Shown piece by piece: positions 32,904-34,203 of a stretch of DNA of 40,572 nt (its first letter is position 1; every line of letters begins with the position of its first letter). The DNA is taken from assembly GCF_003334355.1 (NCBI RefSeq), contig NZ_QOWP01000032.1; one strand, written 5' to 3'. Origin of the DNA: Escherichia coli. Lineage in GTDB: Bacteria > Pseudomonadota > Gammaproteobacteria > Enterobacterales > Enterobacteriaceae. The notes under the pieces are model-generated. The model did not search any database. It was not told the DNA's origin and saw nothing but the letters and a program-made list of their open reading frames with translations. The position numbers and the translations under genes were made by a program.

Positions 32904-33962
32904 ATGTTTTCAATGATATTAAGCGGGCTAATTTGTGGTGCTCTGCTGGGATTTGTCATGCAGCGTGGGCGTTTTTGCCTGACAGGTGGTTTTCGCGATA
33001 TGTATATCGTGAAAAATAATCGCATGTTTTACGCCTTGCTGATTGCAATTTCGGTACAAAGCGTGGGGGTTTTTGCGTTAATTCAGGCGGGCCTACTGAC
33101 TTACGAAGCCGGGGCGTTCCCGTGGCTTGGTACTGTTATAGGTGGGTATATCTTCGGGCTGGGAATTGTTCTGGCGGGTGGATGTGCCACCGGGACCTGG
33201 TATCGCGCGGGTGAGGGATTGATCGGCAGTTGGATCGCGCTTTTCACTTATATGGTGATGAGTGCGGTGATGCGTTCTCCACATGCCAGTGGTTTAAATC
33301 AAACCTTGCAGCACTACAGTACTGAACATAACTCTATTGCTGAGACTTTTAATTTGTCTGTGTGGCCGTTGGTTGCCGTTTTGCTGGTGATAACGCTCTG
33401 GGTGGTGATGAAAGAGTTGAAGAAGCCAAAACTCAAAGTCGCGACCTTACCGCCGCGCCGAACCGGGATCGCTCATATTCTGTTTGAAAAACGCTGGCAT
33501 CCCTTTGTCACTGCTGTACTCATCGGTTTGATTGCGCTTTTAGCCTGGCCCCTGAGTGAAGCAACCGGACGCATGTTTGGGTTAGGAATCACTTCCCCAA
33601 CGGCCAATATTCTGCAATTTCTGGTCGCGGGTGACGTGAAATACATTAACTGGGGCGTTTTCCTGGTGTTAGGGATCTTCGTGGGGTCATTTATTGCAGC
33701 CAAAGCGAGCCGTGAGTTCCGCGTTCGCGCAGCTGATGCACAAACAACATTACGTAGCGGGTTAGGTGGTGTACTGATGGGCTTCGGTGCCAGTATTGCA
33801 GGTGGTTGCTCTATCGGTAATGGACTGGTTATGACTGCAATGATGACCTGGCAGGGCTGGATTGGCCTTGTATTTATGATTCTCGGAGTCTGGACTGCGT
33901 CCTGGCTTGTGTATGTTCGACCGCAGCGTAAGGCGCGACTGGCAACTGCTGCGGCAAATTAA
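32904..33962 (+). CDS. yeeE: YeeE/YedE-family inner-membrane thiosulfate transporter (TsuA)
   Basis: 352-aa hydrophobic ORF with duplicated GGCxxG-containing halves. Confidence 0.85.
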   Translation: MFSMILSGLICGALLGFVMQRGRFCLTGGFRDMYIVKNNRMFYALLIAISVQSVGVFALIQAGLLTYEAGAFPWLGTVIGGYIFGLGIVLAGGCATGTWYRAGEGLIGSWIALFTYMVMSAVMRSPHASGLNQTLQHYSTEHNSIAETFNLSVWPLVAVLLVITLWVVMKELKKPKLKVATLPPRRTGIAHILFEKRWHPFVTAVLIGLIALLAWPLSEATGRMFGLGITSPTANILQFLVAGDVKYINWGVFLVLGIFVGSFIAAKASREFRVRAADAQTTLRSGLGGVLMGFGASIAGGCSIGNGLVMTAMMTWQGWIGLVFMILGVWTASWLVYVRPQRKARLATAAAN

Positions 33963-33975
33963 GTAAGGTGTAAAG

Positions 33976-34203
33976 ATGGCGATTAAAAAGCTGGATGTGG
34001 TGACGCAGGTCTGTCCATTTCCACTCATAGAAGCAAAAGCAGCACTGGCAGAAATGGCCAGCGGCGATGAGTTGGTAATTGAGTTTGATTGCACCCAGGC
34101 AACAGAAGCAATCCCACAATGGGCGGCAGAAGAAGGACATGCCATCACCGATTATCAGCAGATTGGCGATGCTGCGTGGAGCATCACCGTTCAAAAAGCC
34201 TGA
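33976..34203 (+). CDS. yeeD: TusA-like sulfurtransferase YeeD (TsuB)
   Basis: 75-aa ORF with the CPFP motif (VTQVCPFPLIEAK). Confidence 0.88.
   Translation: MAIKKLDVVTQVCPFPLIEAKAALAEMASGDELVIEFDCTQATEAIPQWAAEEGHAITDYQQIGDAAWSITVQKA

What the first reader, a model, noticed from the sequence alone, without database searches (positions are those of the whole stretch)
32904..34203. yeeE-yeeD thiosulfate uptake pair ends in a shared convergent terminator with sbcB
The YeeE-family transporter and its TusA-like partner are intact and adjacent. The hairpin at 34212..34240 serves both this operon and the oppositely oriented sbcB.
Basis: established knowledge. Interest (0 to 1): 0.15.

Follow-up and report, generated by a model that had tools for sequence, protein, structure and literature searches.

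The report
E. coli tsuAB operon and 3' hairpin
This is the ordinary, already characterised E. coli thiosulfate-uptake operon tsuAB (yeeED), intact in this strain; the hairpin after it is real and marks where its mRNA ends, but it is not a classical terminator and its use by the opposing gene sbcB has not been shown.

Summary
ORFs 32904-33962 (352 aa) and 33976-34203 (75 aa) are TsuA/YeeE and TsuB/YeeD. They differ from the characterised K-12 proteins at 1 and 2 residues, pass NCBIfam's curated cut-offs, and keep every functionally tested cysteine. A perfect 9-bp GC hairpin (34215-34238) lies between the tsuB and sbcB stop codons.

Two published K-12 datasets (Term-seq, SMRT-Cappable-seq) place the tsuAB mRNA 3' end at the same nucleotide, 5 nt after the stem (window 34243). 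The hairpin is kept across about 20 enterobacterial loci, with different stem sequences that still pair. However, neither strand has a U-tract, no sbcB 3' end is recorded in either dataset, and a Rho-sensitive region is called on the tsuAB strand nearby. It is best read as a U-less stem-loop that defines the 3' end (Rho plus exonuclease trimming, or collision-type termination), not as a classical shared intrinsic terminator.

Extras:
- A conserved CysB-type dyad lies at -71 to -35 from the mapped start site (32877).
- About 22% of complete E. coli genomes lack tsuAB. There plaP and sbcB share a textbook bidirectional terminator. This gene loss was already reported in 2011.

Verdict: already known, low interest.

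The parts
32740..32781 (+). plaP intrinsic terminator: stem CCGGAG/CTCCGG extended by A/T pairs, then a T7 run. It forms the upstream boundary of the tsuAB unit.
   Evidence: Inverted repeat I1; fold -20.8 kcal/mol, z -3.2. The K-12 yoeI-plaP transcript ends at 2085648, which is window 32781 (coordinate transfer).
32806..32842 (.). 37-bp dyad AATAACCATTTGTTCTAA-T-TTAGAGAATTTGGTTATT, centred at -53 from the start site. Probable CysB activation site (inferred).
   Evidence: Inverted repeat I2. The blocks ATAACC / TTAGA / TTTGGTTATTGG are conserved in about 25 loci from many genera. The architecture matches CysB activation sites: two convergent 19-bp half-sites centred 50-60 bp upstream of the start (PMC11329422). 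tsuA and tsuB co-vary with cys genes (PMC13401006).
32865..32870 (+). -10 hexamer AATAAT (preceded by TG), with a poor -35 (TGGTCT, 32842-32847).
   Evidence: Sequence. GAATAAT is nearly invariant across genera. It lies 7 nt upstream of the mapped start site.
32877..32877 (+). Transcription start site of tsuAB (A), giving a 27-nt leader.
   Evidence: SMRT-Cappable-seq K-12 start at 2085552 for operon b2013|b2012 (PMC6131387), transferred to the window through the gapless K-12/window alignment.
32904..33962 (+). tsuA (yeeE), thiosulfate transporter, 352 aa.
   Evidence: ORF. NCBIfam NF041049, 710 bits against a cut-off of 645. 1 aa different from K-12. PDB StYeeE 6leo, E 3e-44, with C25/C94/C302 aligned to C22/C91/C293. 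Interface residues R21, R101, E104, E271 and R275 are present.
33965..33970 (+). Shine-Dalgarno sequence AAGGTG for tsuB, 5 nt before its ATG.
   Evidence: Sequence.
33976..34203 (+). tsuB (yeeD), TusA-like sulfurtransferase partner, 75 aa.
   Evidence: ORF. NCBIfam NF041048, 163 bits against a cut-off of 147.5. 2 aa different from K-12. C13 in the CPFP motif and C39 are present; both are required in EcYeeD (PMC11073785).
34215..34238 (.). Perfect 9-bp GC-rich hairpin (loop TATCAG) in the 42-nt spacer between the tsuB and sbcB stop codons. No U-tract on either strand.
   Evidence: Conserved with compensatory changes across genera. Stem invariant within E. coli. Single copy. No Rfam family matches.
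34242..34243 (+). Steady-state 3' end of tsuAB mRNA, 4-5 nt after the stem and 3 nt before the complement of the sbcB stop codon.
   Evidence: Term-seq 3' ends at K-12 2084186 (LB, OD 2.0) and 2084187 (M63) (PMC7815308 supplementary file 1). SMRT-Cappable-seq transcript end at 2084186 in M9 and rich medium. Coordinate transfer.
34246..35673 (-). sbcB (exonuclease I), convergent with tsuB. Its TAG stop is 7 nt from the hairpin.
   Evidence: ORF, RefSeq annotation, start MMNDGKQQ.

Best explanation
The segment is the E. coli tsuAB (yeeED) operon, a bicistronic 1367-nt transcription unit.

How it works:
- Promoter: an activator-dependent promoter with a conserved CysB-type dyad at -71 to -35, a -10 hexamer AATAAT, and a start site at 32877. 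The start site is mapped in K-12; the role of CysB is inferred.
- TsuA: an inner-membrane channel that passes thiosulfate along three cysteines (C302, then C94, then C25).
- TsuB: a TusA-like cytoplasmic partner whose CPxP cysteine C13 takes over and decomposes thiosulfate, with C39 also required. These functions were shown for the near-identical K-12 proteins and the S. thermophila homologues, not for this strain.
- 3' end: the mRNA ends 5 nt past a GC hairpin (34215-34238). That hairpin has been kept in the tsuB-sbcB spacer across Enterobacteriaceae by compensatory change.

Because the hairpin has no U-tract on either strand, it is not a classical intrinsic terminator. Most likely RNA polymerase is released at or shortly beyond it with the help of Rho, and the hairpin then fixes and protects the 3' end against 3'-to-5' exonucleases. 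This step is inferred. The inverted repeat is perfect, so the same stem-loop forms in sbcB RNA and probably does the same job there. That is plausible but unshown.
For: Identity of the genes:
- RefSeq names the genes tsuA and tsuB in 100%-identical genomes.
- Both proteins exceed the curated NCBIfam cut-offs.
- They differ from K-12 at 1 and 2 aa.
- They match the solved StYeeE and StYeeE-YeeD structures, with the cysteines aligned.
- The functional residues are present.

Transcript:
- SMRT-Cappable-seq gives one primary transcript, 2085552 to 2084186, covering b2013|b2012. In M9 medium 33 reads end at the site, 5 end within 50 bp beyond it and 12 pass further. In rich medium the counts are 74, 16 and 7.
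- Term-seq gives the same nucleotide in two conditions.

Hairpin under selection:
- 20 distinct stem-loops at the same site in 20 loci. Pairs 2-8 are 100% canonical with 3-4 pair types each, against 49-57% pairing when the partner column is slid.
- Fold z-scores range from -2.1 to -4.9, apart from one Superficieibacter locus at -0.7.
- The stem is invariant within E. coli while neighbouring positions vary.

Not an intrinsic terminator:
- The tails carry 3 T in 9 nt on both strands, and the consensus scan does not call it.

Rho and protective-hairpin model:
- A Rho termination region is called at 2084344(-), score 5.7, p 1e-7.
- C/G is 1.7 in the first 100 nt downstream, about the 90th percentile of the window.
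- This matches the published description of Rho-dependent 3' ends: a stable stem-loop, low U, mild C>G downstream (PMC6061677).

Promoter.
Against: - The Rho call uses 800-nt windows that include the hairpin 3' end itself. It could reflect relief of premature termination inside tsuA/tsuB rather than read-through past the hairpin.
- Read-through transcripts are short, median 45-62 nt. That also fits termination at the hairpin itself or by RNA polymerase collision.
- No dataset I could open shows an sbcB 3' end here.
- CysB binding to the dyad has not been shown.
- The hairpin comparison across genera was anchored on each sequence's own predicted hairpin axis, which favours pairing. MAFFT alignments (A1, A2) were not consistent with the structure.
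Confidence: 0.75

Rival explanations
1. Collision-type bidirectional terminator. The stem-loop positions head-on collisions between RNA polymerases transcribing tsuAB and sbcB, and the collisions (plus trailing polymerases) release both. This works independently of Rho and of a U-tract.
For: - A class of E. coli terminators between convergent genes that 'do not resemble intrinsic terminators' and do not depend on Rho is described. A stem-loop is required to fix the collision site (Ju 2019 as summarised in bioRxiv 10.1101/2022.10.23.513370).
- The geometry here fits: convergent stop codons 42 nt apart, one symmetric GC hairpin, no U-tracts.
- The tsuAB 3' end is sharp and read-through is short.
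- The hairpin is conserved in this convergent spacer across genera.
Against: - Only one of the two expected overlapping 3' ends is documented.
- A Rho-sensitive region is called nearby.
- sbcB and tsuAB are weakly expressed genes, and the cited work reports lower collision-termination efficiency for lowly expressed pairs.
- I could not open the SEnd-seq list to see whether yeeD/sbcB is on it.
Confidence: 0.3
2. Classical shared bidirectional intrinsic terminator. The hairpin alone, with its weak tails, terminates both tsuAB and sbcB transcription without any factor.
For: - A strong GC stem of about -20 kcal/mol forms on both strands.
- The tsuAB 3' end lies a few nt after it.
- 66-76% of full-length reads that reach the site end there.
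- On the sbcB-sense strand an outer helix could bring a UUUUU run, encoded by the last tsuB codons, next to the structure.
Against: - There is no U-tract within 9 nt of the stem on either strand and no A-tract upstream. Most orthologous hairpins also lack one.
- The 3' end lies only 4-5 nt past the stem, in CUUCA.
- Where tsuAB is deleted, the same sbcB gene is followed by a textbook A-tract/stem/U-tract terminator. That shows what a canonical bidirectional terminator looks like at this very site.
- The sbcB-sense outer helix has an 11-nt asymmetric bulge and loses one of its seven pairs in K-12 (structure read against the K-12 sequence).
Confidence: 0.12
3. The hairpin matters only for one of the two mRNAs, or is a neutral leftover, and its position next to the other gene is incidental.
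For: Only the tsuAB 3' end is documented. sbcB works with a completely different 3' structure in the 22% of E. coli genomes without tsuAB.
Against: Neutrality is unlikely. The stem is maintained by compensatory changes across genera and is invariant within E. coli. A perfect palindrome necessarily forms in both RNAs, and every spacer keeps it within a few nt of the sbcB stop codon.
Confidence: 0.15

Closest known systems
E. coli K-12 tsuA-tsuB (yeeE-yeeD, b2013-b2012) operon
   Same: Same locus, gene order and neighbours (plaP upstream, sbcB convergent). TsuA is 351/352 and TsuB 73/75 identical. The hairpin stem, promoter dyad and -10 are identical.
   Different: Only allelic differences: TsuA V245 (M in K-12), TsuB A2/A28 (V in K-12), loop TATCAG versus TACCAG, and sbcB stop TAG versus TAA.
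Spirochaeta thermophila YeeE and the YeeE-YeeD complex (PDB 6LEO, 8J4C, 8K1R)
   Same: Same fold family by sequence (E 3e-44). The three relay cysteines and the YeeD CPxP cysteine align.
   Different: Much more distant in sequence (E 3e-44 for YeeE, about 5e-6 for the YeeD part). StYeeD has one conserved cysteine, whereas the E. coli protein has two (C13, C39).
[quoted passage not shown]
   Same: A stable stem-loop lies immediately upstream of a precise 3' end, with low U content, mild C>G downstream and a Rho-sensitive region nearby.
   Different: Exonuclease trimming and Rho dependence of this particular end were not tested. Here the stem-loop also sits between convergent stop codons.
Overlapping bidirectional terminators between convergent genes (Ju et al. 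2019; Wang et al. 2022 preprint)
   Same: A convergent gene pair, a single stem-loop, and no resemblance to an intrinsic terminator.
   Different: Overlapping ends from both strands and Rho independence are not shown for this pair.
plaP|sbcB junction of tsuAB-less E. coli (e.g. Nissle 1917, ATCC 25922)
   Same: Same chromosomal site and the same sbcB 3' end. A hairpin is shared by two convergent genes.
   Different: There the hairpin is a canonical bidirectional intrinsic terminator, AAAAAGCCGGAG-N7-CTCCGGCTTTTTT. The 79-nt stretch holding it and a second hairpin folds at -33 kcal/mol, z about -7.

Membership tests
TsuA/YeeE thiosulfate transporter (NCBIfam NF041049; YeeE/YedE family) | Full-length match above the curated score cut-off | tested here: met
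   710.4 bits against a cut-off of 645; residues 2-349 match profile positions 1-348.
TsuA/YeeE thiosulfate transporter (NCBIfam NF041049; YeeE/YedE family) | Three conserved relay cysteines (StYeeE C293, C91, C22) | tested here: met
   C302, C94 and C25 align to them. Their role is described in PMC11073785.
TsuA/YeeE thiosulfate transporter (NCBIfam NF041049; YeeE/YedE family) | Residues at the YeeD interface that are required in EcYeeE (R21, R101, E104, E271, R275) | tested here: met
   All are present.
TsuA/YeeE thiosulfate transporter (NCBIfam NF041049; YeeE/YedE family) | Thiosulfate uptake activity | not testable with these tools
   Inferred from 99.7% identity to the K-12 protein that was tested genetically.
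TsuB/YeeD TusA-like sulfurtransferase (NCBIfam NF041048) | Match above the curated cut-off, and a gene adjacent to and co-transcribed with tsuA | tested here: met
   163.2 bits against a cut-off of 147.5. 13-nt spacer with a ribosome-binding site. One bicistronic transcript in K-12.
TsuB/YeeD TusA-like sulfurtransferase (NCBIfam NF041048) | CPxP-motif cysteine (C13) and second cysteine (C39), both required in EcYeeD | tested here: met
   C13-P-F-P and C39 are present.
Rho-independent (intrinsic) terminator | GC-rich stem-loop | tested here: met
   9 perfect pairs, 8 of them G-C; about -20 kcal/mol.
Rho-independent (intrinsic) terminator | U-rich tract of 7-8 nt immediately after the stem (plus an A-tract before it for bidirectional use) | tested here: not met
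   + strand tail CTTCAAACT and - strand tail ACAATGTTG, 3 T in 9 each. Not called by the consensus scan, although that scan is weak evidence.
Rho-independent (intrinsic) terminator | Factor-independent release in vitro | not testable with these tools
   Needs single-round transcription assays.
Protective 3' stem-loop of Rho-dependent transcripts (Dar & Sorek 2018) | Precise steady-state 3' end immediately downstream of a stable stem-loop with low U content | tested here: met
   The 3' end lies 4-5 nt after the stem in two independent datasets. Tail composition; definition.
Protective 3' stem-loop of Rho-dependent transcripts (Dar & Sorek 2018) | Read-through rises when Rho is inhibited, with a rut-like C>G region downstream | tested here: inconclusive
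   A Rho region is called at 2084344(-), score 5.7, but with 800-nt windows that include the 3' end itself. C/G of 1.7 downstream is only about the 90th percentile.
Protective 3' stem-loop of Rho-dependent transcripts (Dar & Sorek 2018) | Longer tails in pnp/rnb mutants | not testable with these tools
   The supplementary tables of PMC6061677 are not held.
Collision-type bidirectional terminator (Ju 2019) | Stem-loop between convergent genes that does not look like an intrinsic terminator | tested here: met
   definition.
Collision-type bidirectional terminator (Ju 2019) | Overlapping 3' ends from both strands at the site, and Rho independence | tested here: inconclusive
   Only the tsuAB end is recorded, and no sbcB end was called. 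A Rho-sensitive region lies nearby. The SEnd-seq tables could not be reached.
CysB activation site | Pair of convergent ~19-bp half-sites centred 50-60 bp upstream of the start site, abutting -35 | tested here: met
   Arms of 18 nt separated by 1 nt, 32806-32842, centre at -53 from the mapped start. Conserved across genera. Definition.
CysB activation site | CysB binding and N-acetylserine-dependent activation | not testable with these tools
   Only co-variation of tsuA/tsuB with cysJ, cysD, cysP and other cys genes is available. The CysB consensus is stated to be very weak.
REP / repeated extragenic palindrome | Many copies per genome | tested here: not met
   Exactly one place per genome in 4203 genomes.

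The most novel reading that the evidence does not exclude
The tsuB-sbcB hairpin is a genuine collision-dependent, U-tract-free bidirectional terminator that has been maintained by compensatory evolution across Enterobacteriaceae. E. coli also offers a natural swap: about 22% of strains have replaced it at the same sbcB 3' end with a canonical bidirectional intrinsic terminator. The two termination modes could therefore be compared in one chromosomal context.
Probability: 0.25. Interest if true: 0.35.

Novelty: already known. Interest (0 to 1): 0.12.

Why it matters
It matters little beyond annotation. The strain has a functional-looking second thiosulfate uptake route (TsuAB) in addition to CysPUWA.

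The useful correction concerns how convergent hairpins are read. A hairpin between convergent genes should not automatically be called a shared intrinsic terminator. This one lacks U-tracts on both strands. It is an example of the U-less 3' stem-loops whose mechanism is still debated (Rho plus trimming versus polymerase collision).

Three things make it a convenient test case for that question, though not a new phenomenon:
- It is conserved across genera.
- Its 3' end is mapped in K-12.
- A natural deletion allele exists that carries a textbook bidirectional terminator at the same site.

Tried and rejected
- MAFFT alignments of the spacers (A1) and of hairpin-centred 24-mers (A2) slid the arms out of register. 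They could not be used for the structure-pair tool, so I counted pairs on an axis-anchored stack in Python and state the bias this introduces.
- The consensus terminator scan did not call the hairpin. It also misses the obvious canonical terminator in L001, because its A/T tracts pair. I therefore treat its silence as weak evidence.
- Rfam found nothing in the region at the gathering threshold or at E<=1.
- The REP-element idea is rejected: the spacer is single copy.
- Recent horizontal acquisition of tsuAB by E. coli from the sampled genera is rejected: nucleotide identity of tsuA and tsuB to Citrobacter and other genera (74-86%) matches that of the flanking genes.
- The search for an sbcB 3' end failed. 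It is absent from the Adams 2021 and Yan 2018 tables. The Dar & Sorek and Conway supplements are not held. Ju 2019 and Lalanne 2018 are not held.
- Literature searches linking yeeE to CysB gave only indirect co-expression evidence.
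Full report
**1. What is in the sequence**

The window is an E. coli chromosome segment. The gene order is O-antigen cluster, his operon, yefM-yoeB, yeeZ, yeeY, plaP, then the finding, then sbcB, dacD and sbmC.

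They are separated by 13 nt containing AAGGTG, 5 nt before the second ATG. sbcB converges from the other strand (34246-35673). The 42-nt spacer between the two stop codons holds a perfect inverted repeat, CCTCCGCCG / CGGCGGAGG (34215-34223 / 34230-34238), with a 6-nt loop. It folds at about -20 to -21 kcal/mol on either strand, z about -2.9.

**2. Identity of the genes**

- A 1601-nt query covering the region is 100% identical to one RefSeq E. coli genome and 95-100% identical to thousands. RefSeq annotates the genes as tsuA (thiosulfate utilization transporter TsuA/YeeE) and tsuB (sulfurtransferase TsuB/YeeD).
- Against K-12 MG1655, TsuA differs at one residue (V245 here, M in K-12). TsuB differs at two (A2 and A28 here, V in K-12).
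- Both exceed the curated NCBIfam cut-offs: 710 bits against 645, and 163 against 147.5.
- The closest solved structures are S. thermophila YeeE (6LEO, E 3e-44) and the YeeE-YeeD fusion (8J4C, 8K1R).
It fails to refute. TsuA C25, C94 and C302 align with StYeeE C22, C91 and C293. TsuB has C13 in a CPFP motif, plus C39.
- The PLoS Biology 2024 study showed that EcYeeD C13 and C39, and EcYeeE R21, R101, E104, E271 and R275, are needed for growth on thiosulfate. All of these residues are present here.

**3. The transcript**

Two independent published K-12 datasets could be read.

- SMRT-Cappable-seq (PMC6131387) lists one primary transcript covering b2013|b2012, from a start at 2085552 to a 3' end at 2084186. 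It is seen in both M9 and rich medium. In M9, 33 reads end at the site, 5 end within 50 bp beyond it and 12 pass further. In rich medium the counts are 74, 16 and 7. Median read-through is 45-62 nt, and the end is labelled 'novelTTS', meaning no known terminator was annotated there.
- Term-seq (PMC7815308) lists a 'primary yeeD / antisense sbcB' 3' end at 2084186 (LB, OD 2.0) and 2084187 (M63), and none in LB at OD 0.4.

Because K-12 and the window align without gaps here, these map to:
- a start site at window 32877 (an A, 27 nt before the ATG, 7 nt after the -10 hexamer AATAAT);
- a 3' end at 34242-34243, which is 4-5 nt after the stem and 3 nt short of the complement of the sbcB stop codon.

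The mRNA is 1367 nt. The upstream gene plaP has its own classical terminator; the K-12 transcript end at 2085648 corresponds to window 32781, at the end of a T7 run.

**4. Is the hairpin a shared terminator?**

The hairpin is clearly under selection.

- A scan of one genome per species found the same plaP-tsuA-tsuB-sbcB-dacD arrangement in Citrobacter, Leclercia, Kosakonia, Kluyvera, Lelliottia, Pseudocitrobacter, Siccibacter, Superficieibacter and others.
- In most of them the tsuB-sbcB spacer is only 23-42 nt and contains a GC hairpin. Its stem sequence differs between genera, for example CCCTCCGCC, GCGCCCCGC, GCCCTCCCG, TCCCTCTGCG, GCCTCGCAC and TCTCCCGCTAC.
- I stacked 20 loci on the hairpin axis. 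All 20 sequences are distinct. Pairs 2-8 are canonical in every locus, with 3-4 pair types each, against 49-57% pairing when the partner column is slid. The caveat is that this stack is anchored on each predicted hairpin, which favours pairing.
- Within E. coli the stem is invariant in seven diverse genomes, while loop and flank positions vary.
- The spacer is single copy, so it is not a REP element.

It nevertheless fails the second defining feature of an intrinsic terminator.

- The nine bases after the stem are CTTCAAACT on the tsuAB strand and ACAATGTTG on the sbcB strand, 3 T each. No A-tract precedes the stem. Most orthologous hairpins are equally U-poor.
- Adams et al. call a bicyclomycin-sensitive Rho termination region on the tsuAB strand at 2084344. 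The 3'-end counts without BCM are 35 upstream and 12 downstream; with BCM they are 140 and 273. The score is 5.7 and p is 1e-7. The 800-nt windows used do include the hairpin end itself, so this is suggestive only.
- The first 100 nt downstream in the tsuAB sense are mildly C-rich and G-poor, with C/G of 1.7, about the 90th percentile of the window.

This profile matches what Dar & Sorek described for Rho-dependent transcripts. Those have a precise end just after a stable stem-loop without uridines. The stem-loop acts mainly as a block to PNPase and RNase II, after diffuse termination further downstream.

It also matches the anatomy of the 'bidirectional terminators' of Ju et al. [quoted passage not shown]

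I cannot separate these two models with the data available. I rank Rho plus a protective hairpin slightly ahead because of the Rho call and the low expression of both genes.

No sbcB 3' end is listed in either dataset. 'Serves both' is therefore an inference from symmetry: a perfect palindrome forms in both RNAs and sits 7 nt from the sbcB stop codon.

**5. Promoter**

The 178-bp plaP-tsuA spacer contains a 37-bp dyad at 32806-32842, AATAACCATTTGTTCTAA-T-TTAGAGAATTTGGTTATT, centred at -53. The dyad's sequence blocks and the GAATAAT -10 are the conserved islands in an alignment of about 25 loci from many genera. The sequence between them is free to vary.

CysB activation sites are described as two convergent 19-bp half-sites centred 50-60 bp upstream of the start site. 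tsuA and tsuB fall in the same expression component as cysJ, cysD, cysI, cysH, cysK, cysP, cysU, cysW, cysA, cysN, cysC and tcyP. I therefore infer CysB-dependent activation. Binding itself has not been shown here.

**6. Presence/absence polymorphism (side result)**

- Of about 5420 complete E. coli genomes, 4202-4203 carry the region. About 1215-1222 (22%) match only from the sbcB stop codon onward.
- In those genomes plaP is directly convergent with sbcB across 73 bp. That spacer ends in a textbook bidirectional intrinsic terminator, AAAAAGCCGGAG-TTTGTCG-CTCCGGCTTTTTT. Folded over 79 nt it gives -33 kcal/mol, z about -7.
- 783 genomes have this plain junction, among them Nissle 1917 and ATCC 25922, which I recall to be phylogroup B2. 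Others, such as EcPF7, carry an IS200C between the terminator and sbcB.
- tsuA and tsuB are as diverged from their Citrobacter and other orthologues (74-86% nucleotide identity) as the flanking genes are, and the synteny is family-wide. Absence is therefore most simply a loss.
- The deletion-type spacer retains TCAAAAAGCC, which matches the last codons of tsuB. This is suggestive only, because A-tract-plus-GCC is a common way for a terminator to begin.
- No Escherichia or Salmonella species representative appeared among the TsuA hits. I could not inspect those junctions directly.
- The indel, the IS200-like insertion and the yefM-yoeB indel were already noted descriptively in 2011 (PMC3158064).

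**7. Verdict**

The gene assignment is correct and already known. The 'shared convergent terminator' should be restated as 'a conserved U-less 3' stem-loop that marks the tsuAB mRNA end; release mechanism and use by sbcB undetermined'. Nothing here is a new kind of system, and interest is low.

Noticed in passing
L001 8926-8998 (also L002; E. coli Nissle 1917, ATCC 25922): About 22% of complete E. coli genomes lack tsuA-tsuB entirely. There plaP and sbcB are convergent across 73 bp that carries a canonical bidirectional intrinsic terminator. The spacer keeps TCAAAAAGCC, identical to the last tsuB codons. The gene loss was reported descriptively in PMC3158064.
   Followed up: yes
L084 6343-6801 (E. 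coli EcPF7): In a subset of the tsuAB-less genomes, an IS200C transposase element sits between the plaP terminator and the sbcB stop codon.
   Followed up: partly
window 32806-32842: A 37-bp dyad centred at -53 from the tsuAB start site is conserved across many enterobacterial genera, together with the GAATAAT -10. It has the architecture of a CysB activation site.
   Followed up: partly
window 28689-29218: The yefM-yoeB toxin-antitoxin pair is present between hisL and yeeZ. It is absent at the same place in L002 (CNREC_004-43), so this is another small presence/absence polymorphism.
   Followed up: no
L039-L083 (Paenibacillus, Bacillaceae and relatives): Firmicute TsuA and TsuB homologues are 65-73% and 58-74% identical to the E. 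coli proteins. This is unusually high for a comparison across phyla and suggests horizontal transfer of the pair.
   Followed up: no
L004-L035, plaP matches: PlaP identity to the window falls into two classes, 86-88% and 96-97%, even within Citrobacter. The neighbouring genes show no such split, which may indicate recombination or mosaicism at plaP.
   Followed up: no
L008, L015, L019, L020, L021, L026, L035 (tsuB-sbcB spacer): In some genera the short spacer is expanded to 83-1074 bp by extra palindromes or repeated elements. L019 has an internally duplicated insert of about 1 kb, and L035 has a canonical AAAAAGGGTCGC...GCGACCCTTTTT terminator.
   Followed up: no
window 34215-34238 and orthologous hairpins: The 5' arm CCUCC and the 3' arm GGAGG (anti-Shine-Dalgarno-like and Shine-Dalgarno-like) recur in the hairpin of many genera. 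This may simply reflect GC richness.
   Followed up: no
window 31146-31220 (+), 28284-28407 (-), 3528-3566 (+): Rfam hits above the gathering threshold: sRNA STnc240 between yeeY and plaP, the His operon leader, and a JUMPstart element ahead of the O-antigen genes.
   Followed up: no
K-12 2084344 (-), about window 34085, inside tsuB: Adams et al. 2021 call a Rho termination region within tsuB (score 5.7). It may reflect premature Rho termination in the weakly translated operon rather than termination at its end.
   Followed up: partly
E. coli genome searches: One of the 4203 matches to the tsuAB region lies on a record labelled as a plasmid. I did not inspect it.
   Followed up: no
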